Shown in pieces: positions 490 to 43,137 of a DNA stretch of 64,000 nucleotides. Numbering within the stretch: the first letter of the stretch is position 1; each line of letters starts with the position of its first letter. The stretch is taken from the sequence record MT446423.1; one strand, given 5' to 3'. The notes under the pieces are model-generated. The model was given only the letters and a program-made list of their open reading frames with translations, was not told the DNA's origin and did no database searches. A program made the position numbers and the translations under genes. The stretch comes from Escherichia virus TH58.

Positions 490-590
490 ACCGTGGTATT
501 CGGCTCGATGGGAGACAGTCGAGCCAGACGTCGAAACAGTTTACAATGACGAAGAAACGTGTTATGATGAACCTTCAATAAATGAATTAA

Positions 591-788
591 TTGATATGGA
601 AATGGGAAGAGATTATTATGCAAGTTAAATTATTGTACCGTTTATTAAAAAATGGCAAGCATGATTGGTATTTGCTTATTAAAACCGATCCGAATTTTTT
701 CTCTGGACAACCATTTACAGTTCGTCCTACTAAACGTCAGCTTCGCAAAGCTAAACGTTCTCATCGTAACTTTTATAGAGAATATTGA
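591..788 (+). CDS. small basic hypothetical protein (true start may be ATG 618)
   Basis: Track ORF; C-terminal basic tail FTVRPTKRQLRKAKR, shared with ORF 30409-30621. Confidence 0.3.
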   Translation: MIWKWEEIIMQVKLLYRLLKNGKHDWYLLIKTDPNFFSGQPFTVRPTKRQLRKAKRSHRNFYREY

Positions 789-789
789 T

Positions 790-1215
790 ATGAATATTTC
801 TGAAACTCGCGGTAAATGGTTCAAGATTGTTAAAGAAGACGAAGAACTCCAATATAAGTTTCCTGAATTAAAGAAAGATACGATCATCAAGGTAATTGGT
901 ACTACTGCCGAAGATGGTTATGGCGACCATGGAATTATCGAAGTGATGTTGAACACAGGTGAGAAACTTTGCATCTATGACCGTGATACTTCTCTTTGGT
1001 GCTTCTGGGAATCCCATTCAATAGATGAACTCGAAGAAATTGATTCGGCTGATATTGCTGGTGTGCTAGGTAGTAAACTTGGCGAATTCGAAGGTGAACG
1101 TATTTCTTATGCATTAGCTAAATTAGCCGGACAAGAAAATAACGACGGCTATGAAGGTAATCTGATGCAAGCCGCAGCGGAATACATTGAATATTTAGAA
1201 AGACGTTTAAGTTAA
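790..1215 (+). CDS. hypothetical protein (141 aa)
   Basis: Start refined to internal ATG (MNISETRGKWF) of track ORF 652-1215; upstream part of track ORF looks non-coding. Confidence 0.5.
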   Translation: MNISETRGKWFKIVKEDEELQYKFPELKKDTIIKVIGTTAEDGYGDHGIIEVMLNTGEKLCIYDRDTSLWCFWESHSIDELEEIDSADIAGVLGSKLGEFEGERISYALAKLAGQENNDGYEGNLMQAAAEYIEYLERRLS

Positions 1216-1250
1216 TAAATACCCTTATCTATTTAAGGTAAGGGTTTATC

Positions 1251-1724
1251 ATGTTATTATCAGGCGCAAAATATAAAGAAGAAAAACAAAAATTTTATGA
1301 TGCACAGAATGGTAAGTGTCCTATTTGCCACCGTGAATTAGACCCTGATGTTCAAGGTAACCATCTTGACCACGACCACGAATTAAACGGGCCAAAAGCA
1401 GGTAGAGTTCGTGGGTTACTCTGTAATCTGTGCAACGCAGCAGAAGGTCAAATGAAGCATAAGTTCAACCGTTCCGGTCTTAAAGGACGTGATGTTGACT
1501 ACCTCGAATGGCTTGAAGCTCTTCTTGCTTATTTGAAACAAGATTATTCTGATAATAATATCCATCCTAATTTTGTTCCAGACAAAACTAAAGAGTTCTC
1601 AAGACTAGGTAAAGAGGAAATGATGGCTGAGATGCTTCAAAGAGGATTTGAATATAATGAATCTGATACCAAAACACAATTAATAGCTTCATTCAAAAAG
1701 CAGCTTAGAAAGAGTTTAAAATGA
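1251..1724 (+). CDS. 49: endonuclease VII (Holliday-junction resolvase), gene 49
   Basis: 157 aa; CPICHRE..HLDHDH..CNLCN zinc/His motifs; matches T4 endo VII as remembered; adjacent to nrdD as in T4. Confidence 0.88.
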   Translation: MLLSGAKYKEEKQKFYDAQNGKCPICHRELDPDVQGNHLDHDHELNGPKAGRVRGLLCNLCNAAEGQMKHKFNRSGLKGRDVDYLEWLEALLAYLKQDYSDNNIHPNFVPDKTKEFSRLGKEEMMAEMLQRGFEYNESDTKTQLIASFKKQLRKSLK

Positions 1725-2258
1725 AAATTGAAAAAGAAATTGAAGGATTAATTCATAAAACTAATAAAGATCTTTTGAACGAGAATGCTAATAAAGATTC
1801 TCGTGTTTTTCCAACTCAACGGGACCTTATGGCTGGTATTGTGTCTAAGCACATTGCTAGAAATATGGTCCCGTCTTTTATTATGAAAGCACATGAAAGC
1901 GGAATTATCCATTTCCATGATATTGATTATTCCCCTGCTCTTCCGTTTACTAATTGCTGTTTAGTAGATTTAAAAGGAATGCTTGAGAATGGATTTAAAT
2001 TAGGCAATGCTCAAATTGAAACGCCTAAATCTATTGGCGTTGCTACTGCAATTATGGCACAAATTACTGCACAAGTTGCTTCACATCAGTACGGCGGAAC
2101 GACTTTTGCTAATGTAGATAAAGTACTTTCTCCTTATGTTAAACGCACCTATGCAAAACATATTGAGGATGCAGAAAAATGGCAAATCGCTGATGCGTTG
2201 AATTATGCCCAATCTAAAACAGAAAAAGACGTATACGATGCATTCCAAGCTTATGAGT
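1721..2258 (+). CDS. nrdD: anaerobic ribonucleotide reductase NrdD, exon 1
   Basis: N-terminal NrdD sequence; reading frame hits TAA 2264-2266 just inside a group I intron; 5' splice site placed after U2258 by P1 pairing (exon AUGAGU with intron GCUCAU at about 2272-2277). Confidence 0.85.
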
Positions 2259-2469
2259 TAATTTAATTCAGGCTCATGTAAAACCGGTCTAAACGGGGAA
2301 CCTCTCTAGTAGACAATCCCGTGCTAAATGTTCTTTTGAACTAAATGCCTAACGACTAACCGTGATGAATGTAGCGGTGTAGAATAGAAGCTAATGCTAT
2401 TCGAAACGGCCGGCATCGAAAGATGAAGATATAGTCTAATCTGCATGGCGACATGCAGCAGTCATCTTG

Positions 2470-2477
2470 TATAAATA
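2470..2477 (+). promoter_or_regulatory. T4 late-promoter motif TATAAATA upstream of intron ORF
   Basis: Exact TATAAATA about 30 nt upstream of ATG 2507, followed by GAGGTG Shine-Dalgarno. Confidence 0.4.
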
Positions 2478-2506
2478 AGATTATCTTATGAATACGAGGT
2501 GAAACA

Positions 2507-3277
2507 ATGAAATGGATAAAAAGACGTTGTACTAAAATAAAAGATAAAGACGCATTTACATACTTAGTTAAGTTTTCTAATGGCGACATTTATATCGGTT
2601 ATAAAAAATTTAGAACAATTAAAAACAAGCCCACAAACTGGAAAACTTACACAACGTCATCTAAGTATATAAATGAACGCTTAAAAACTGATACACCTAC
2701 TAAATGGATAATTTTAAAAACATTTGATAGTTATAAAGACGCATTAAAACATGAAGAAGAGGTCATACGTAAATATTTTTATAACAAAAAATGTTTAAAT
2801 AAATCCATAGGCGGTAAAAAGTTTTATAAGCATCCGGATACTGAAGAACATATTCAAAAATTAAGAGATGCTCATAAGGGTAAAGTGTTATCCGAATCTC
2901 ATAAAAACAATATAAAATCTTCTGTAGCTGAATATTATGCTAAAAACGGAAGATCTAAGGAACATGTGCAAAATAATATCAATAGTCGAAAAAGTAAAAA
3001 ACAAGTATCGATAAAGCTTAAAAATAAAACTTTTAGAAGTTTTAAAAAAGCGGCGGAATATTTAAATTGCACTGAAAGTGAAGTCGAAACTCATCCTCTT
3101 GTTTTGAGTATTAAGACTACTATTCATAAAGTTCCTGAATATGTGGTTGTTGACGGTATTAAGTATACGTCTTATATAGAAGCAGCTAAAGCGCTAAATT
3201 TTCATCCTAGCACTATAAAAGAACGTTGCATATCTATGGACTATCCAAATTTTGTTGTTTCATATAAACGGGCATGA
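2507..3277 (+). CDS. intron-encoded GIY-YIG homing endonuclease (I-TevII-like)
   Basis: 256 aa within nrdD intron; N-terminal GIY-YIG-like segment (..DIYIGYKK..), repeated NUMOD3-like basic repeats, C-terminal helix-turn-helix (VVDGIKYTSYIEAAKALN). Confidence 0.8.
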   Translation: MKWIKRRCTKIKDKDAFTYLVKFSNGDIYIGYKKFRTIKNKPTNWKTYTTSSKYINERLKTDTPTKWIILKTFDSYKDALKHEEEVIRKYFYNKKCLNKSIGGKKFYKHPDTEEHIQKLRDAHKGKVLSESHKNNIKSSVAEYYAKNGRSKEHVQNNINSRKSKKQVSIKLKNKTFRSFKKAAEYLNCTESEVETHPLVLSIKTTIHKVPEYVVVDGIKYTSYIEAAKALNFHPSTIKERCISMDYPNFVVSYKRA

Positions 3278-3291
3278 ATTTGCGACTCATG

Positions 3292-4583
3292 CTGAATATA
3301 ATGATGAAGTAAATACACTTTTCAGCTCTAATGGACAAACGCCTTTTGTAACAATTACATTTGGAACAGGAACTGACTGGACTGAACGAATGATTCAAAA
3401 AGCAATTCTGAAAAATCGTATTAAAGGTCTTGGACGTGACGGGATAACTCCTATTTTCCCTAAACTTGTTATGTTCGTTGAAGAAGGTGTTAATCTTTAT
3501 AAAGACGACCCGAACTACGATATTAAGCAGCTTGCTCTAGAGTGTGCAAGCAAAAGAATGTATCCTGATATTATTTCGGTTAAGAATAATAAAACTATCA
3601 CCGGTTCTTCAGTTCCTGTTTCTCCAATGGGCTGCCGTAGTTTCTTGAGCGTATGGAAAGATTCGACTGGTAATGAAATTCTTGATGGACGTAATAATCT
3701 TGGCGTTGTAACACTGAATCTTCCTCGTATTGCATTAGATTCTTATATTGGAACACAATTCAATGAACAGAAATTTGTTGAGTTATTTAATGAACGAATG
3801 GATCTGTGTTTTGAAGCCTTGATGTGTAGAATTAGTTCCTTAAAAGGAGTTAAAGCGACTGTTGCTCCTATTCTTTATCAAGAAGGTGCATTTGGGGTTC
3901 GTCTTAAACCTGATGATGACATAATTGAGTTATTTAAAAACGGTAGAAGTTCGGTGTCTTTAGGATACATTGGTATTCATGAATTGAATATTCTTGTCGG
4001 ACGTGATATTGGGCAAGAAATTTTAACTAAAATGAATGCTCGTCTTAAGCAGTGGACTGAAAGAACTGGTTTTGCTTTTAGCTTGTATTCTACTCCCGCT
4101 GAAAACCTTTGTTATCGCTTCTGTAAACTTGATACCGAGAAATATGGAAGTGTAAAAGATGTTACTGATAAAGGCTGGTACACTAATAGTTTCCATGTTT
4201 CAGTAGAAGAAAATATCACTCCGTTTGAAAAGATTTCTCGCGAAGCACCATATCATTTCATTGCGACCGGCGGACACATTTCTTATGTTGAACTTCCTGA
4301 TATGAAAAATAACTTAAAAGGACTTGAGGCTGTATGGGATTATGCCGCACAACATTTAGATTATTTTGGTGTTAATATGCCAGTAGATAAATGTTTTACA
4401 TGTGGAAGTACCCATGAAATGACTCCTACCGAAAACGGATTTGTTTGTTCTATTTGTGGAGAAACTGATCCTAAAAAGATGAACACAATAAGAAGAACAT
4501 GCGGTTATCTCGGAACTCCTAGCGTTGTTCCGTGGAATTTAGGTAAAATGAAAGAAATGGTAAAACGAGTAAAACATGCATAG
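3292..4583 (+). CDS. nrdD: anaerobic ribonucleotide reductase NrdD, exon 2
   Basis: Continues NrdD; zinc site CFTCGS..CSICG and C-terminal glycyl-radical motif RRTCGYLG; spliced protein about 609 aa. Confidence 0.85.
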
Positions 4584-5406
4584 GTATTATATAATTTATA
4601 AAATAACAAATATAATTAATTCAAAGGAATATATCGGTGCGCATAGCACCGATAACATAAATGACGGTTATATGGGGTCAGGAACATTGATTCGTGCCGC
4701 TTTATTAAAATATGGTAGAAAAAATTTTAATAAAGAAATTTTACATGTTTTTGATAATGAAAAACAAATGTATGATAAAGAAGCTGAACTTGTAACCGAA
4801 GAGTATTGTCTAAAAGAAAATACATATAATATTAAACCTGGTGGAAAAGGTGGAACTGCCTATGAACAGACACTTGAACATCGCCGCAAAAATAGTTTAG
4901 CAAATAAAGGTAAAAAGAGAACAGAAGAAACTAAAATAGCTATTTCACGTGCTTTAAAGAAATATAAACGTACGCCAGAGCATCAAGCAAATTTAAATAA
5001 AGCCGTAAGCATAGCTATGAAGCGAAAAGATGTTAGAAGTAAATTAGCTGGAGAGCGGTCTGAGAAAGATAAATTATCTATATCAAACGGTGTTAAAAAA
5101 TATTACAATTCTTTGAGTGAAGAAGAACGCGAACTTCATCGCAAGCGAATTATTGAAGGTAAAAAGAATTCTCCCATGTCATTGGAATCTAGACAAAAGC
5201 TTTCAAAAGCTTTAAAAGGACTTCAAGTTGGTTCAAAAAATCCAATGTATGGAAAAATTTCTCCGACTAGCAAAACCGTTTCAGTTGACGGTATTAAATA
5301 TGATTCAATTAAAAAGTGCTCAAATGCCATAAAAGTTTCTAGACATCTTATACTAAAACGCTGTAATTCTACTGATGAAGCTTGGAAAAATTGGGTATTA
5401 TTATGA
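4576..5406 (+). CDS. free-standing GIY-YIG homing endonuclease (Seg-like)
   Basis: 276 aa; classic YYIIYKITNIINSKEYIGAHST..GYMGSG GIY-YIG motif, NUMOD3 repeats, C-terminal HTH; inserted between nrdD and nrdG with overlapping start/stop. Confidence 0.8.
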   Translation: MHRYYIIYKITNIINSKEYIGAHSTDNINDGYMGSGTLIRAALLKYGRKNFNKEILHVFDNEKQMYDKEAELVTEEYCLKENTYNIKPGGKGGTAYEQTLEHRRKNSLANKGKKRTEETKIAISRALKKYKRTPEHQANLNKAVSIAMKRKDVRSKLAGERSEKDKLSISNGVKKYYNSLSEEERELHRKRIIEGKKNSPMSLESRQKLSKALKGLQVGSKNPMYGKISPTSKTVSVDGIKYDSIKKCSNAIKVSRHLILKRCNSTDEAWKNWVLL

Positions 5407-28370: not shown

Positions 28371-29813
28371 GTGGTAGAAATTATTTTGTCTCATCTAGTA
28401 TATGACCAGGCTTATTTTTCTAAGGTCTGGCCTTATATGGATTCTGAGTATTTTGAGCGTGGACCGGCAAAAAATGTCTTTAAAATTATAAAGAGCCACG
28501 TTAACGAATATAATGCAATGCCATCTATTAATGCGTTAAAGGTGGCTTTAGATAACAGTTCTTTAACTGAAGCCGAATACAAAGGAACTTCAGACCTAAT
28601 TGAAAAATTGGCTGATACTCCTGAAGACCACGAATGGTTGGTTAAAGAAACTGAGAAATATGTCCAGCAAAAAGCGATGTATAATGCTACATCCAAAATC
28701 ATTGAGATTCAGTCTAATGCTGAACTACCTCCAGAACAACGTAACAAGAAAATGCCTGACGTAGGAGCTATTCCTGATATTATGCGTCAAGCACTTTCAA
28801 TTTCGTTTGATAGTTATGTTGGGCATGACTGGATGGAAGACTACGAAGCACGCTGGCTTTCTTATCTAAATAAAGCACGTAAGGTCCCGTTCAAATTAAA
28901 CATTCTGAATAAAATCACTAAAGGTGGTGCTGAAACCGGTACGCTGAATGTTTTAATGGCCGGTGTTAACGTTGGTAAATCTTTAGGCCTTTGTTCACTT
29001 GCTGCAGATTATCTTCAAACAGGTCATAATGTTCTTTATATTTCCATGGAAATGGCCGAAGAAGTTTGTGCTAAGCGTATAGATGCAAACATGCTTGACG
29101 TATCACTCGATGATATCGATGATGGTAACGTATCTTATGCTGAATATAAAGCTAAGATGGAAAAATGGCGTTCAAAATCCACATTAGGACGTTTAGTAGT
29201 TAAACAGTATCCTACTGGCGGAGCTAATGCTAATACATTCCGTGCGTTGCTTAATGAATTGAAACTCAAGAAGAACTTTGTGCCATCTGTAATCATGGTT
29301 GATTACTTAGGTATTTGTGGGTCTTGTCGTATCAGAGTTTACACTGAAAATAGCTACACATTAGTTAAAGCTATCGCAGAAGAACTTCGTGCATTAGCAG
29401 TAGAATCTGAAACAGTTCTATGGACTGCAGCTCAAGTAGGACGTGCAGCATGGGATGCTTCAGACATGAACATGAGCGATATTGCAGAATCAGCAGGTTT
29501 ACCAGCAACTGCAGATTTCATGTTGGCCGTAATTGAAACCGAAGAACTTGCACAAGCTGAACAACAACTTATCAAACAAATCAAATCACGATACGGTGAT
29601 AAGAATAAGTGGAATAAATTCCTGATGGGTGTACGCAAAGGCAACCAGAAATGGGTTGAGATTGAGCAAGAAGGCATGAACACACCTAACACAGTAAATG
29701 AAAACGCAGGTGCTCAGATGCGTCAGGCAGAGGTGAATCGTACGGAACGCGTAGGTAAAGCCAAAGCAACACGTGCTGACCTAGATAGCTTAGCCAATGA
29801 GTTAAAATTTTAA
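28371..29813 (+). CDS. 41: replicative DNA helicase gp41 (DnaB-like), GTG start
   Basis: 480 aa starting VEIILSHL; Walker A AGVNVGKSLGL; matches T4 gp41 as remembered, which also begins MVEIIL. Confidence 0.95.
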   Translation: MVEIILSHLVYDQAYFSKVWPYMDSEYFERGPAKNVFKIIKSHVNEYNAMPSINALKVALDNSSLTEAEYKGTSDLIEKLADTPEDHEWLVKETEKYVQQKAMYNATSKIIEIQSNAELPPEQRNKKMPDVGAIPDIMRQALSISFDSYVGHDWMEDYEARWLSYLNKARKVPFKLNILNKITKGGAETGTLNVLMAGVNVGKSLGLCSLAADYLQTGHNVLYISMEMAEEVCAKRIDANMLDVSLDDIDDGNVSYAEYKAKMEKWRSKSTLGRLVVKQYPTGGANANTFRALLNELKLKKNFVPSVIMVDYLGICGSCRIRVYTENSYTLVKAIAEELRALAVESETVLWTAAQVGRAAWDASDMNMSDIAESAGLPATADFMLAVIETEELAQAEQQLIKQIKSRYGDKNKWNKFLMGVRKGNQKWVEIEQEGMNTPNTVNENAGAQMRQAEVNRTERVGKAKATRADLDSLANELKF

Positions 29814-29842: not shown

Positions 29843-29872
29843 GTTTACATCTTCCTCTAGGCATGGTATGAT
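29843..29872 (+). promoter_or_regulatory. early promoter (-35 GTTTAC, -10 TATGAT)
   Basis: GTTTAC, about 18-nt spacer, TATGAT. Confidence 0.5.
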
Positions 29873-29901: not shown

Positions 29902-30219
29902 ATGAAAACCATCGATTGTAAAGCAGAATTTAAGATTTTTTATCACGGTTCAAGTAGTTCAGCTAACATCGAAAACATGCTTTGCCCTCCTGAAGAAACA
30001 GGAGTTCTGTCTGAAACTGGACGTAAGAAAAACTTGGATCGTGTATTCTTTACTGAAGATATCGGTTTAGCAAAGATTTATGCAGGACGAGCAGCACGCT
30101 CTTATGGAGGTGAACCACGTCTCTATCGAGTAATTTCTCCGGTGGACGTAGTTCAAATGAATAATACTAAAGGTGCTACAGTTTATCACGCTGAATGGGC
30201 ATTTTGCGAGGAAATATGA
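29902..30219 (+). CDS. hypothetical protein (105 aa)
   Basis: Track ORF with AGAGGAGAA SD. Confidence 0.5.
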   Translation: MKTIDCKAEFKIFYHGSSSSANIENMLCPPEETGVLSETGRKKNLDRVFFTEDIGLAKIYAGRAARSYGGEPRLYRVISPVDVVQMNNTKGATVYHAEWAFCEEI

Positions 30220-30407
30220 GCAAATTAACTAAAGTTACTTTTATCGGTTGGTTTAAAAGCGGCGAGATGTTCACTAAAGATATCATGTTATCAGGTGATC
30301 GCGAAGAAATCGAGTGGGTTGCGGTACAACTTGCTGAAGTGAACAACGCATTAGTTAAAGCATTTGTTAATGACGAGAAAGTTTTTGAAGCTGATTTCAG
30401 AGGATAA
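30216..30407 (+). CDS. dmd: Dmd-like antitoxin (discriminator of mRNA degradation)
   Basis: Internal ATG (MSKLTKVTFIGWFKSGEMFTKDI..) of track ORF 30195-30407; about 63 aa; resembles T4 Dmd as remembered; position between 41 and sp. Confidence 0.6.
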   Translation: MSKLTKVTFIGWFKSGEMFTKDIMLSGDREEIEWVAVQLAEVNNALVKAFVNDEKVFEADFRG

Positions 30408-30408
30408 T

Positions 30409-30621
30409 ATGTATTCAACTGTGTTTAAACCATCAACATACGAATTTGCATCAACTACACAATGGAAAGCTCTTATTCTGGAAGGATGGGAACTAATGAT
30501 GGACTGTGAAGCATCTGAAAAGTTTCCACACGGCAAAGTGGACTTCGTTAAATTTGCTGTACGTCCGACTAAACGACAGATTCGTCAAGAAAAACGCAAA
30601 TTTCGCAAAAGTTTAAAATAA
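30409..30621 (+). CDS. small basic hypothetical protein (70 aa)
   Basis: Internal ATG of track ORF 30364-30621; basic tail FAVRPTKRQIRQEKRKFRK, shared with ORF 591-788. Confidence 0.45.
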   Translation: MYSTVFKPSTYEFASTTQWKALILEGWELMMDCEASEKFPHGKVDFVKFAVRPTKRQIRQEKRKFRKSLK

Positions 30622-30623
30622 CT

Positions 30624-30653
30624 GTTTACAAGCATCGCATACTGTGTTACTAT
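30624..30653 (+). promoter_or_regulatory. early promoter (-35 GTTTAC, -10 TACTAT)
   Basis: GTTTAC, about 18-nt spacer, TACTAT; upstream of lipoprotein gene. Confidence 0.5.
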
Positions 30654-37129: not shown

Positions 37130-37711
37130 ATGACATGTCAATCTGAACTTCAAGAACGTGAATACCTAACAAATCTGATTGATAGCAAATTCACCCGCCA
37201 AGAACAAAACATTCTCTGGGCTTGCACTGATTCTAAGGAAGACCCGGATTTCCACTATGAATTAGACCATCTTGTTCGTAAGCATATGACTTCTACAGTA
37301 CCAGTAGAACTCTACCGTGGTGTAACTCCAGAAGAAGTAGAACGTCTTTCCCTTCTTTCTGTTGGATGTCATTGGTCTCCTGGACGAGTAACATCGTTCA
37401 CAACTGATTTCAGTACAGCTCGTCAATTCTCCGGGAGTTGGGAGTATCAGACGTACACTATTCTTAGTCTCAGGAATGCTCCATTCATTTTTGATTACTA
37501 CCAAAACATGATTAACATTGTACTTGCCGGAAAGAACCCTAAGCATGTTATGGAAGAAAAACGTGTTGACGTCCTAGATATGATTGAATCTGAACAAGAG
37601 TACATGGTCTCAGGTATCTCTAGATTTGAGATTGTGGAAATTGAAGACTTAGAATATGACCCTTTATCTCGATTATACAAAATCATTCATTTAAAAATGT
37701 TGAATTTTTAG
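37130..37711 (+). CDS. modB: ADP-ribosyltransferase, ModA/ModB family (193 aa)
   Basis: Arg (ELYRGV), Ser-rich segment (TSFTT) and EQE (ExE) catalytic motif; paralog of next gene; symbol assigned only from T4 gene order. Confidence 0.55.
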   Translation: MTCQSELQEREYLTNLIDSKFTRQEQNILWACTDSKEDPDFHYELDHLVRKHMTSTVPVELYRGVTPEEVERLSLLSVGCHWSPGRVTSFTTDFSTARQFSGSWEYQTYTILSLRNAPFIFDYYQNMINIVLAGKNPKHVMEEKRVDVLDMIESEQEYMVSGISRFEIVEIEDLEYDPLSRLYKIIHLKMLNF

Positions 37712-37768: not shown

Positions 37769-38377
37769 ATGTTTATGCCGTATAACGAGTGTGAAATTGA
37801 AGAAATGGTTCGTCGTGCTCAATGCCCGGATTATCAAGATATGCTTCAGTACAAAATCGATGAGCAATTCAGCGACATTGAACAAAGTGTACTATGGCAG
37901 TGTATGGAAAACAAGCCAGACAGCATCCAACAAGATTTAAGTGCAATTGTTCGTAGAAATTGGTCTTCTTCAGTTCCTGAGACAATGTATCGTGGAATCT
38001 CTAAGAAAACTATGGCCACACTTGATGATAAAGGCATAGGTAGTATTATTAAATTTGACAGAGTAATGAGCTTTAGTCCGGTGTTCGGTGTAGCACGTAA
38101 CTTCGCTTCATATAATTTTTACGGAACATTTAATATGTTCTGCATCAAAGATGCACCATTTGCTTTCAACTTCCGTGAACATATGCTTAACATGATTCTG
38201 GCTGCGCCATCTTGTGAGTTCAATGGAGCTTTCCCTGAAGCGACAAGACGGTCTAATGCTAGACTTATATCTGACGAATGTGAATTTATGCTCCCTATAG
38301 GGACTACACTGCGTGTAGATTCTATTATTCAAGATGGACGTTATACAATCTGGAATCTGTCTATTATCGGTTACTGA
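37769..38377 (+). CDS. modA: ADP-ribosyltransferase, ModA/ModB family (202 aa)
   Basis: Arg (TMYRGIS), ECE (ExE) motif aligned with upstream paralog; symbol assigned only from T4 gene order. Confidence 0.55.
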   Translation: MFMPYNECEIEEMVRRAQCPDYQDMLQYKIDEQFSDIEQSVLWQCMENKPDSIQQDLSAIVRRNWSSSVPETMYRGISKKTMATLDDKGIGSIIKFDRVMSFSPVFGVARNFASYNFYGTFNMFCIKDAPFAFNFREHMLNMILAAPSCEFNGAFPEATRRSNARLISDECEFMLPIGTTLRVDSIIQDGRYTIWNLSIIGY

Positions 38378-41653: not shown

Positions 41654-42148
41654 ATGAACATCAATACTACGGCTACTTACATCCTGAAAGACGAAAAACA
41701 AATCAACTGGTACGGTGCTTCAGTGCGAGCTTATGAAAAGTTTTGTGAAATTTTAGGTGCCACTCAAGGTAATAGTTTCACTATTGTTAACTTCATCAAA
41801 CAAGCTGAAGGTCCTTGGTTATTCTTAGAAATTAAAAATTCATATGGTACAATTTCTACTACCGCCCTTCCAAGCACCGACTTTGAACTGTTGATTGAAG
41901 AAGCACCTGTTAAAGATGGTCTCCACTTTGATATGGATATCGCTTGTATGTACGGTACTCTGATTAAGCCTATTGAGCCTACTGATTTGTTGTGTAAAGC
42001 TGTTTCGATTCGTCGTCCGTTTGCAGGTCCAGTGAGTGGATGGGTAACTGATCAGTGGATTGAAGACGGCGTTGAACTTCTGAACGTTGTTCATGCAGGT
42101 GATTTTAGTGTAGTTCCACGTAGTGCTGTGGTTAATATCCTTAATTAA
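41654..42148 (+). CDS. hypothetical protein, tandem paralog 1 of 3 (164 aa)
   Basis: Internal ATG of track ORF 41612-42148; C-terminal domain ..GWVTDQWIEDGVELLNVVHAGDFSVVP shared with next two genes. Confidence 0.5.
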   Translation: MNINTTATYILKDEKQINWYGASVRAYEKFCEILGATQGNSFTIVNFIKQAEGPWLFLEIKNSYGTISTTALPSTDFELLIEEAPVKDGLHFDMDIACMYGTLIKPIEPTDLLCKAVSIRRPFAGPVSGWVTDQWIEDGVELLNVVHAGDFSVVPRSAVVNILN

Positions 42149-42150
42149 TG

Positions 42151-42180
42151 TTGTACATCCAAGGATGGATGGAGTATAGT
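42151..42180 (+). promoter_or_regulatory. early promoter (-35 TTGTAC, -10 TATAGT)
   Basis: TTGTAC-atccaaggatggatggag-TATAGT. Confidence 0.5.
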
Positions 42181-42210
42181 GAATTCAATTTAAACAAAGA
42201 GAGAGAAATT

Positions 42211-42708
42211 ATGATTACTATTGGTGAAATCCTTCGTGTATCTCCTGCTTCTCGTTCTAAAGCTGCAGGTCGTCTGGTTGAAGTAGCAGGGCTTCGTACT
42301 AACGGCATGGGACGTGTTAAAGAAGTTAAAGTTCGAATCATGCCCAGTTTTGGCGGACAAGAGGCCCAGTATGCTTACGTAAGTCCTAAATTCCTGGAAA
42401 AACATATACGAGTCCAATTTGCTTCAAGCGAAGAAGTTGCACCTGCACACTTTGCTTCAAACGATATCGTTGAGCCTACTACACAGTTCAAATGGGCCCT
42501 TTGCAAAGGCGTTGAATTTATAACCGATAAAGAATTTGATTACATCGACGAATACGGTTATCCAAGCAAAACTGATATTATGTGCGGCTTCATTAGTGAC
42601 CAATGGGTTGAAGATGGTAAAAAGTTATACAATATTGTATTTTTAGGTGACTTCCGAGTTGTTGAAGAATCTGAAATCACTCGCTATGTTTCTCCTCGTA
42701 AAGCTTAA
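42211..42708 (+). CDS. hypothetical protein, tandem paralog 2 of 3 (165 aa)
   Basis: Internal ATG of track ORF 42148-42708; N-terminal SPASRSKAAGRLVEV and C-terminal GFISDQWVEDGKKLYNIVFLGDFRVV shared with paralog 3. Confidence 0.5.
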   Translation: MITIGEILRVSPASRSKAAGRLVEVAGLRTNGMGRVKEVKVRIMPSFGGQEAQYAYVSPKFLEKHIRVQFASSEEVAPAHFASNDIVEPTTQFKWALCKGVEFITDKEFDYIDEYGYPSKTDIMCGFISDQWVEDGKKLYNIVFLGDFRVVEESEITRYVSPRKA

Positions 42709-42717
42709 GGAATTATT

Positions 42718-43137
42718 ATGAATATTGCAAATCTCTCTATTGGTGATTATGTACACGTATCAGATGCTTCTCGCTCTAAAGTTGTCGGGAAGTTGGTCGA
42801 AGTTCTTTCTGTGAGTGATCCGGTTTTTGGACGTAACGAAGTTAAAGTTCGTGACGCTGATGGTAACATTGGTTACGTTAAAAGCCAATTCATTGAACCA
42901 GAAGAAAAAGCGTTCAAATGGAAACTGTGCAGATCGGTTTTAGTTGTAAAAGACCATGAATTTACTATTGCTGCTGCAACTGACGGGTCTCCATGGAAAA
43001 CTAAGCAAATAGCCGGATTTATTAGCGACCGTTGGGTAGAAGATGGTGTTAAGCTTTATAACATCGTTTTCGCTGGGCAGTTCATGGTAGTTCCTGAGTT
43101 CCAAATCAAAAAATATTGTCCAGCATCTTTTGCATAA
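42718..43137 (+). CDS. hypothetical protein, tandem paralog 3 of 3 (139 aa)
   Basis: Track ORF; N-terminal SDASRSKVVGKLVEV and C-terminal GFISDRWVEDGVKLYNIVFAGQFMVV. Confidence 0.5.
   Translation: MNIANLSIGDYVHVSDASRSKVVGKLVEVLSVSDPVFGRNEVKVRDADGNIGYVKSQFIEPEEKAFKWKLCRSVLVVKDHEFTIAAATDGSPWKTKQIAGFISDRWVEDGVKLYNIVFAGQFMVVPEFQIKKYCPASFA

What the first reader, a model, noticed from the sequence alone, without database searches (positions are those of the whole stretch)
591..788. Shared basic C-terminal tail VRPTKRQ[LI]R in two distant small ORFs
ORF 591-788 ends ..FTVRPTKRQLRKAKRSHR and ORF 30409-30621 ends ..FAVRPTKRQIRQEKRKFRK. The motif is too specific to be chance and suggests a small paralogous family, possibly nucleic-acid-binding, dispersed across the early region.
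Basis: seen in the sequence. Interest (0 to 1): 0.35.

Follow-up and report, generated by a model that had tools for sequence, protein, structure and literature searches.

The report
Two TifA-family RNA-binding phage genes
The shared "VRPTKRQ-R" motif is real: it is the known RNA-binding helix of TifA, a T4-like phage protein that disarms the bacterial ToxN toxin. One ORF is TifA itself and the other is a shorter, untested paralog.

Summary
The window is an RB69-like T-even phage (Mosigvirus).

- **ORF2 (30409-30621)** is identical to RB69 gp61.4, also called TifA. TifA is a published RNA-binding inhibitor of the type III toxin ToxN.
- **The shared motif** is the Pro-Thr cap plus the first basic residues of TifA's C-terminal helix. 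Published P53A/T54A and K55A/R56A/R59A mutants lose both RNA binding and ToxN neutralisation.
- **ORF1** most likely starts at ATG 618 (56 aa, 618-788) and sits just upstream of pin. It keeps all five of those residues and six basic positions on one helix face. It scores 54.5 bits on Pfam DUF7279, the TifA family (cut-off 24.5). Its predicted fold is the same three strands plus a helix, but both inter-strand loops are much shorter, including the loop that carries TifA's ToxN-contact residue 41.
- **Beyond the tail** the similarity is weak but in register (profile-profile P 1.6e-4 with the tail removed).
- **Copy number:** the window has two copies. RB69 has three, all in this early region. T4 has no copy near pin.

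The family and its nucleic-acid binding are already known. The short pin-adjacent paralog has not been characterised. It most likely binds RNA and may be a counter-defence factor with a different target.

The parts
618..788 (+). ORF1: 56-aa short TifA-family (DUF7279) paralog, orthologous to RB69ORF089c, directly upstream of pin.
   Evidence: Translation. The same 171-nt CDS is annotated in Mosigvirus relatives. Pfam DUF7279 E 1.1e-14. dN/dS 0.09-0.18 between clearly diverged Mosigvirus copies. AF2 model: three strands plus a helix, pLDDT 78.7.
720..746 (+). ORF1 motif VRPTKRQLR: Pro37-Thr38 helix cap plus K39, R40 and R43.
   Evidence: These residues align with P53, T54, K55, R56 and R59 of TifA, which are needed for RNA binding and ToxN inhibition (PMC10853763).
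732..782 (+). [quoted passage not shown] Basic residues K39, R40, R43, K46, R47 and R50 lie on one face.
   Evidence: AF2 secondary structure. Residue-by-residue comparison with the TifA helix.
30409..30621 (+). ORF2: tifA (gene 61.4), 70 aa, identical to RB69 TifA.
   Evidence: Pfam DUF7279 E 3.5e-20. Function from PMC9391042 and PMC10853763.
30559..30585 (+). TifA motif VRPTKRQIR: the P53-T54 cap plus K55, R56 and R59.
   Evidence: Mutagenesis reported in PMC10853763 section 25.
30195..30407 (+). dmd, the antitoxin against RnlA/LsoA. It is co-operonic with tifA in T4 and its stop abuts the tifA start. Context only.
   Evidence: PMC9391042.
790..1215 (+). pin, the inhibitor of host Lon protease. 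It starts 2 nt after the ORF1 stop (TGATATG). Context only.
540..568 (+). Early-promoter-like site TTTACA-17-TATGAT with an extended TG, about 50 nt upstream of the ORF1 start. It is only a consensus match.
   Evidence: The same hexamers occur at 29844-29872, upstream of the ORF105-dmd-tifA cluster.

Best explanation
The two ORFs are paralogs in the TifA family (Pfam DUF7279) of small early proteins from T4-like phages.

Shown:
- ORF2 is TifA itself, 100% identical to RB69 TifA.
- Published work shows that TifA binds RNA through a C-terminal basic alpha-helix capped by Pro-Thr. [quoted passage not shown] The proposed mechanism is that it traps ToxN on abundant RNA such as 16S rRNA, so phage transcripts escape cleavage.

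Inferred for ORF1 (618-788, 56 aa):
- It is a stripped-down member with the same predicted strand-strand-strand-helix fold, the same Pro-Thr cap and the same six basic positions on one helix face.
- The strand1-strand2 connection is 5 residues instead of 20. The strand2-strand3 loop, which in TifA carries the ToxN-contact residue 41, is 2 residues instead of 9.
- I therefore infer that ORF1 binds RNA in the same way.
- More tentatively, I infer that it uses its different sheet and loop surface against a partner other than ToxN, most plausibly another RNA-targeting host defence nuclease.
For: Homology:
- Pfam DUF7279 hits both ORFs full-length, well above the cut-off. T4 TifA and the pin-49 small ORFs hit the same model.
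- hhalign of the short subfamily against the TifA subfamily: 98.3% probability, E 2.3e-14. With the tail deleted it still aligns in the same register, P 1.6e-4. The tail-less ORF1 scores 13.7 bits, E 0.059, on Pfam positions 1-23.
- An N-terminal-only HMM scores above shuffled sequences at p about 0.03.

Structure:
- AF2 for ORF1: E2-9, E15-24, E27-33, H39-55, pLDDT 78.7.
- AF2 for TifA: E2-6, E27-33, E43-49, H55-69, pLDDT 80.9. [quoted passage not shown]
- In both models the helix begins right after Pro-Thr.

Function of the motif:
- P53A/T54A and K55A/R56A/R59A abolish RNA co-purification and ToxN neutralisation in RB69 TifA. The same substitutions in T4 TifA abolish co-immunoprecipitation with ToxN (PMC10853763).
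- ORF1 has the equivalent residues P37, T38, K39, R40 and R43, plus K46, R47 and R50.

ORF1 is a real gene:
- dN/dS is 0.09-0.18 between clearly diverged Mosigvirus copies, and the motif is invariant in them.
- It is tightly packed between the 49.1 homolog and pin.
- It is annotated as a CDS in relatives.

Different specificity is plausible:
- Six other TifA homologs neutralised none of the toxins tested. The variable loop carrying residue 41 tunes ToxN inhibition.
Against: - No experiment exists for ORF1 or for any pin-adjacent short member. None of the ten TifA proteins listed in the paper's Table S2 is of this type. The one I checked by genome position, vB_EcoM_005, sits at the 61.4 locus.
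- Most of ORF1's profile score comes from the helix. N-terminal similarity is marginal on its own.
- A Foldseek search with the TifA model did not return the ORF1-type protein among its top 50 hits. The two models share only a few weak common hits, such as the Citrobacter phage Merlin 54-aa protein.
- The ORF1 ortholog is frameshifted in the RB69 reference genome, so it is dispensable at least there.
- An anti-defence role is argued only from homology and from the variable-gene neighbourhood.
Confidence: 0.85

Rival explanations
1. ORF1 is a second, redundant ToxN inhibitor. It acts on the same toxin as TifA by the same RNA-trapping mechanism.
For: ORF1 is in the same family and has an identical RNA-binding face. 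RB69-type phages are less sensitive to toxIN than T4 (PMC9391042). RB69 carries extra family members, while T4 has none in the pin region.
Against: The loop carrying residue 41, which modulates ToxN inhibition, is reduced from 9 to 2 residues in ORF1, and the strand1-strand2 region from 20 to 5. Six more conventional TifA homologs already fail to neutralise ToxN. Expressing RB69 TifA alone explained the RB69 phenotype in the published work.
Confidence: 0.15
2. ORF1 is a general small RNA-binding protein, for example an mRNA or rRNA binder that affects stability or translation early in infection. On this reading it is not a counter-defence factor.
For: Only the RNA-binding helix is strongly conserved. 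The rest is minimal. RB69 TifA binds RNA, ssDNA and dsDNA with little sequence preference in vitro.
Against: The gene is patchy. It is absent from T4, frameshifted in RB69, and recombined away together with pin in FL18-type phages. That pattern fits an accessory, host-range type gene better than a core regulatory one. The family as a whole is small and phage-restricted: 43 clusters among 1.84 billion representatives.
Confidence: 0.25
3. The resemblance is chance, or convergence between two lysine/arginine-rich C-termini, with no common ancestry.
For: Pairwise BLASTP aligns only 19 residues. An equal bit score appears somewhere in 14 of 40 shuffled versions of the window's proteome.
Against: Both ORFs match an independent curated profile over its full length. 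A profile-profile signal persists with the tail removed. A Trp in strand 2 is conserved and the predicted topology is the same. Intermediate family members link the two types.
Confidence: 0.02
4. ORF1 is not a functional gene. It would be a decaying remnant or a spurious ORF overlapping the region upstream of pin.
For: The RB69 reference copy carries a 1-nt insertion (A7 instead of A6) that truncates it to 38 aa. A longer ORF in another frame (652-1215) overlaps it.
Against: dN/dS is 0.09-0.18 with dS up to 0.74. Intact 56-aa copies at 80% identity or more occur in about 145 phage records. The start overlaps the upstream gene's stop by 11 nt and the stop abuts the pin start, as is typical of T-even early operons.
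Confidence: 0.04

Closest known systems
TifA (T4 gene 61.4; RB69 gp61.4), the ToxN inhibitory factor A. Srikant et al. 2022 eLife (PMC9391042); Guegler et al. 2023/24 NAR (PMC10853763).
   Same: ORF2 is this protein, identical to RB69 TifA and located next to dmd. ORF1 shares the Pfam family, the Pro-Thr-capped basic helix with all mutagenised residues, the conserved Trp, and the predicted three-strand-plus-helix fold.
   Different: ORF1 is 56 aa rather than 70-85. It lacks most of both inter-strand loops, including the residue-41 loop implicated in ToxN contact. It ends in HRNFYREY, a signature of the short subfamily. It lies next to pin, 29.8 kb from dmd. It has never been tested.
Pfam DUF7279 (PF23945); PHROG families phrog_2375 (TifA type) and phrog_3272 (short type).
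   Same: Both ORFs score far above the Pfam gathering threshold. Each is the best hit of one PHROG and cross-hits the other.
   Different: Pfam lists the family as 'unknown function' and PHROGs lists both as 'unknown function'. Neither library carries over the published TifA function. No paper in the searchable library mentions DUF7279.
RB69ORF087c / KIT03_80 / VR7ORF082c: 58-59 aa ORFs between pin and gene 49 in Mosig-, Tequatro- and Gaprivervirus.
   Same: These are the closest relatives of ORF1, at 38-40% identity. They have the same length class, the same HR-FY C-terminus and the same PHROG, and they hit DUF7279 at E about 1e-16.
   Different: They sit on the other side of pin and carry RPTKKMIRQYKR instead of RPTKRQLRKAKR. 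This copy is absent from the window, where pin stops at 1215 and gene 49 starts at 1251.
Double-stranded RNA-binding domain (dsRBD; TRBP, Dicer, ADAR).
   Same: Three antiparallel strands are followed by a helix whose N-terminus presents lysines or arginines. dsRBD chains appear among the top PDB fold hits.
   Different: The matches are not significant (E about 1, probability 0.3-0.4, TM 0.45-0.49). The N-terminal helix of a dsRBD is missing. This is a lead only, not a membership claim.

Membership tests
TifA family / Pfam DUF7279 | Scores above the curated Pfam gathering threshold (24.5 bits) across the model | tested here: met
   ORF1 scores 54.5 bits with residues 7-53 on profile 1-53. ORF2 scores 72.1 bits with residues 18-68 on profile 2-52.
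TifA family / Pfam DUF7279 | Conserved Pro-Thr immediately followed by a cluster of basic residues (the 'PT motif' of PMC10853763 Fig. 5C) | tested here: met
   ORF1 has P37 T38 K39 R40 ... R43 ... K46 R47 ... R50. ORF2 has P53 T54 K55 R56 ... R59 ... K62 R63 ... R66. These positions are nearly invariant across the family.
TifA family / Pfam DUF7279 | [quoted passage not shown] | tested here: met
   AF2 models: ORF1 pLDDT 78.7, ORF2 pLDDT 80.9. These are predictions only; no solved structure exists.
TifA proper (ToxN inhibitor, gene 61.4) | Located directly downstream of dmd in the dmd-tifA operon | tested here: met
   This row is for ORF2. dmd occupies 30195-30407 and tifA starts at 30409. 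ORF1 fails this feature: it lies between the 49.1 homolog and pin.
TifA proper (ToxN inhibitor, gene 61.4) | Extended strand2-strand3 loop carrying residue 41 at the predicted ToxN interface | tested here: not met
   This row is for ORF1. The strand2-strand3 connection is 2 residues (positions 25-26), against 9 residues (34-42, with H41) in ORF2. ORF2 meets the feature.
TifA proper (ToxN inhibitor, gene 61.4) | Binds RNA, and neutralises ToxN in an RNA-dependent manner | not testable with these tools
   ORF2 is sequence-identical to the RB69 TifA protein for which this was shown. There are no data for ORF1.
dsRBD fold | Significant structural match to solved dsRBDs | tested here: inconclusive
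   Best dsRBD hits are 7zpj_D and 4wyq_B at E 1.1-1.3 and TM 0.45-0.48.

The most novel reading that the evidence does not exclude
The short pin-adjacent TifA-like proteins (ORF1 type and RB69ORF087c type) may be a distinct class of minimal 'RNA-glue' counter-defence proteins. They would keep TifA's RNA-binding helix but use a different sheet and loop surface to trap a different RNA-targeting host defence nuclease. Candidates include another type III toxin or an anticodon nuclease. On this reading, DUF7279 is a modular platform whose variable loops set the target. The extra copies in RB69-like phages would then contribute to their broader resistance to toxin-antitoxin defences.
Probability: 0.3. 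Interest if true: 0.5.

Novelty: new member of a known kind. Interest (0 to 1): 0.3.

Why it matters
TifA is one of the few phage counter-defence proteins known to work by tethering a toxin to RNA. This window shows that RB69-like phages carry a second, much shorter family member, and RB69 itself carries a third. All keep the RNA-binding helix intact but lack the loops tied to ToxN recognition.

That gives a concrete, cheap candidate for a new anti-toxin specificity. It also offers a natural 'minimal TifA' for separating RNA binding from target recognition.

There is a caveat for published RB69 and T4 comparisons of toxIN sensitivity: RB69 has extra family members that T4 does not have in the pin region. 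The public protein-family resources (Pfam DUF7279 and the two PHROGs) still list this family as 'unknown function', even though one member has a published function.

Tried and rejected
- **Single-sequence searches of the 5.8-billion-protein set** returned only 2 hits each because of the word-index limit. An alignment query returned 25. The exhaustive profile search found 43 clusters.
- **Pairwise statistics.** A whole-proteome shuffle test showed the pairwise tail match alone is not decisive. I relied on profiles instead.
- **Recent DNA duplication or gene conversion as the source of the tail.** Rejected: blastn finds only a 37-nt, 81% match, and the differences in the core are synonymous.
- **Was the inactive 'TifA homolog' of phage vB_EcoM_005 in the NAR paper a pin-adjacent paralog?** No. 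It maps to the 61.4 locus.
- **NCBIfam:** no model.
- **PDB by sequence:** only spurious streptavidin hits at E about 0.5.
- **PDB by fold:** nothing significant.
- **BFVD fold search:** only uncharacterised phage proteins. The TifA model did not retrieve the ORF1-type entry directly.
- **Literature:** a search for DUF7279 found no papers. Text searches of the two TifA papers found no mention of paralogs.
- **Rfam** found nothing at either locus.

Full report
**What the window is.** Megablast of both loci against GenBank phages gives 97-99% matches to RB69-like T-even phages of the genus Mosigvirus. The + strand runs in the direction of early transcription. In order it carries:
- the end of nrdC;
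- small 49.x ORFs;
- pin, from about 790 to 1215;
- endonuclease VII, 1251-1724;
- nrdD;
- further on, gp41 at 28371-29813 and dmd at 30195-30407.

**Checking the observation.** Both peptides are present as described.
- ORF1 most plausibly starts at ATG 618, not at the upstream TTG 591. That gives 56 aa: MQVKLLYRLLKNGKHDWYLLIKTDPNFFSGQPFTVRPTKRQLRKAKRSHRNFYREY.
- Relatives annotate exactly this 171-nt CDS.
- Its start overlaps the stop of the 49.1 homolog by 11 nt, and its stop abuts the pin start (TGATATG).
- A six-frame regex search and two family HMMs find only these two copies in the 64 kb.

**Is it chance?** Pairwise BLASTP aligns just 19 residues (12 identical, 27.7 bits).
- In an all-against-all of 103 gene-like ORFs from the window this is the sixth best pair. 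An equal score arises somewhere in 14 of 40 shuffled proteomes.
- Profiles decide the question. Both ORFs match Pfam DUF7279 (PF23945) over essentially the whole 53-position model, at 54.5 and 72.1 bits against a cut-off of 24.5. T4 TifA and the small pin-49 ORFs of other T-even phages match it too.
- hhalign of the short subfamily against the TifA subfamily gives 98.3% probability and E 2.3e-14 over 56 columns.
- With everything from the RPT motif onward deleted, the two profiles still align in the same register (strand 1 plus the Trp-containing strand 2) at P 1.6e-4.
- The tail-less ORF1 still scores 13.7 bits on Pfam positions 1-23. An N-terminal-only HMM beats shuffles at p about 0.03.
- The similarity therefore extends beyond the nine residues, but weakly.
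- At DNA level the 27-nt core is 22/27 identical, with four of five differences synonymous. Selection is acting on the peptide.

**What ORF2 is.**
- ORF2 is 100% identical to RB69 gp61.4. Srikant et al. renamed gene 61.4 tifA after T4 escaped the type III toxin-antitoxin system toxIN by amplifying the dmd-tifA locus (PMC9391042).
- Guegler et al. showed that TifA binds RNA. For synthetic RB69 TifA the KD was 0.36-2.3 uM. TifA forms a high-molecular-weight RNA-protein complex with the endoribonuclease ToxN and is proposed to trap ToxN on abundant RNA such as 16S rRNA (PMC10853763).
- They describe a three-stranded sheet packed on a C-terminal basic helix that is capped by a conserved Pro-Thr.
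- RB69 TifA with P53A/T54A or with K55A/R56A/R59A loses RNA co-purification and ToxN neutralisation. The same substitutions in T4 TifA abolish co-immunoprecipitation with ToxN.
- Numbering ORF2 shows that VRPTKRQIR is V51-R59.

**What ORF1 is.** ORF1 corresponds to RB69ORF089c, immediately upstream of pin.
- It keeps P37, T38, K39, R40 and R43, the equivalents of all five mutated TifA residues. It also keeps K46, R47 and R50. The i, i+1, i+4, i+7, i+8, i+11 basic stripe of TifA is fully preserved.
- AlphaFold2 with a 20-sequence family alignment predicts E2-9, E15-24, E27-33 and H39-55 for ORF1 (pLDDT 78.7).
- For TifA it predicts E2-6, E27-33, E43-49 and H55-69 (pLDDT 80.9). In both, the helix starts right after Pro-Thr.
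- The difference lies in the connections. Strand1-strand2 is 5 residues in ORF1 against 20 in TifA. Strand2-strand3 is 2 residues against 9. The latter loop carries residue 41 (His in RB69 TifA), whose identity tunes ToxN inhibition.
- ORF1 is under purifying selection. dN/dS is 0.09-0.18 between clearly diverged Mosigvirus copies, with dS up to 0.74 overall, and the motif is invariant.

**Family size and copy number.**
- An exhaustive HMMER search of 1.84 billion representative proteins finds only 43 clusters at E of 1e-3 or better. Almost all are 55-130 aa proteins with the signature [KR]-P-T-x-[KR]-Q-[ILV]-R-x-x-[KR]-[KR].
- A six-frame HMM scan of the whole RB69 genome finds exactly three members: tifA; RB69ORF087c, which lies between pin and gene 49; and RB69ORF089c. 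All three fall within the region this window covers.
- The window lacks the ORF087c-type copy, because pin stops at 1215 and gene 49 starts at 1251.
- In the RB69 reference, ORF089c is truncated by an extra A in a poly-A run.
- Tequatrovirus KIT03 and Gaprivervirus VR7 carry the pin-49 type.
- The T4 nrdC-nrdD region has none.
- tblastn finds ORF1-type copies (80% identity or more) in about 145 phage records, more distant short-type copies in about 275 records, and matches to the TifA query in about 718 records at E up to 1.

**Has the short paralog been studied?**
- None of the ten TifA proteins in the NAR paper's Table S2 is of the short type.
- The divergent vB_EcoM_005 protein, which failed to neutralise any toxin, maps to the 61.4 locus rather than to pin.
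- Text searches of both papers find no mention of paralogs. No paper in the library mentions DUF7279.
- NCBIfam has no model. No structure has been solved.

**Mechanism, with shown and inferred steps marked.**
- Shown in the literature for a protein identical to ORF2: RNA binding through the Pro-Thr-capped basic helix, RNA-dependent association with ToxN, and neutralisation of ToxN.
- Shown here: ORF1 is a homolog that keeps every residue of that helix face and has the same predicted fold.
- Inferred: ORF1 binds RNA in the same way (about 0.7).
- Inferred more weakly: it is an accessory counter-defence protein whose reduced sheet and loop surface recognises something other than ToxN (about 0.3-0.4). 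The supports are the missing residue-41 loop, the demonstrated narrow specificity of other TifA homologs, and its patchy, recombination-prone distribution next to another host-interference gene, pin.
- Rivals are a redundant ToxN inhibitor, a general RNA-binding protein, a non-functional ORF, and chance. The last two are effectively excluded.

**Comparison with known systems, and verdict.**
- ORF2 is an already known gene. ORF1 is an uncharacterised short member of the same known family, so I file the finding as a new member of a known kind.
- The fold search gives only insignificant dsRBD-like hits. I treat those as a lead, not a classification.
- The residual interest is the untested mini-TifA. 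Interest 0.3.

Noticed in passing
L008 (Escherichia phage FL18) 401-620; compare window 690-800 and L002 2240-2383: In FL18-type phages the ORF1-type gene is a chimera. Its 5' part is ORF1 type. After a shared ACTTTTATA it continues as the 3' end of the RB69ORF087c-type paralog (…NFYNVY*) and runs straight into gene 49. pin and most of ORF087c are deleted. P0001 of phiE142 has the same NFYNVY end. AV109, OLB35 and JM17 show the same match truncated at position 218. The two paralogs flanking pin appear to act as a recombination substrate.
   Followed up: partly
L002 1580-1600 (RB69 NC_004928.1 about 48,500) versus window 650-660: The RB69 reference has A7 where the window and most relatives have A6. 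This frameshifts the ORF1 ortholog, so only a 38-aa RB69ORF089c is annotated. It could be a real pseudogene in the lab strain or a homopolymer sequencing error.
   Followed up: partly
L002 2155-2334 (RB69ORF087c); window 1215-1251: RB69 has a third DUF7279 member between pin and gene 49 (Pfam E 8.5e-16). The window has only a 35-nt gap there. Some relatives (SSE1, pEK20) show a 181-bp insertion at this spot.
   Followed up: yes
window 2223-2458 (+), with ORF 2507-3277: A group I intron (RF00028, 72 bits, E 6e-18) interrupts nrdD and is followed by a GIY-YIG/NUMOD1 homing-endonuclease ORF. The whole-window Rfam scan at gathering threshold reported nothing. The intron appeared only when 2150-3600 was scanned alone, so a negative whole-window Rfam result should be treated with caution.
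   Followed up: partly
window 4576-5406 (+): A second GIY-YIG / NUMOD3 / I-TevI-type DNA-binding endonuclease ORF lies downstream of nrdD. It shows weak paralogy (44 bits) to the ORF at 2507-3277.
   Followed up: no
window 41654-43134 (+): Three tandem motB-family (PF17613) paralogs. This is the strongest intra-window paralogy (93 bits between the second and third).
   Followed up: no
window 37130-37708 and 37769-38374 (+): A tandem paralog pair (85 bits, 31% identity) with no Pfam hit. By position relative to the RB69 annotation they are probably the modA/modB ADP-ribosyltransferases.
   Followed up: no
window 540-568 and 29844-29872 (+): Identical early-promoter-like elements (TTTACA, 17 nt, TATGAT with an extended TG) lie upstream of both DUF7279 loci. 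A third (TTTACA-17-TACTAT) follows the tifA stop at 30625-30653. These are consensus matches only.
   Followed up: no
phage records MH920362.1 (Citrobacter phage Maleficent, 2983-3063) and PQ785583.1 (Salmonella phage As2, 1253-1321): tblastn with TifA gives helix-only matches (about 60% identity over 23-27 aa, E 0.3-0.5) in phages that are not T4-like. The same basic-helix module may occur in other small phage proteins.
   Followed up: no
window 29902-30219 (+): A 105-aa ORF upstream of dmd (RB69ORF040c) has no Pfam hit. It lies in the region the eLife authors call an anti-TA island.
   Followed up: no
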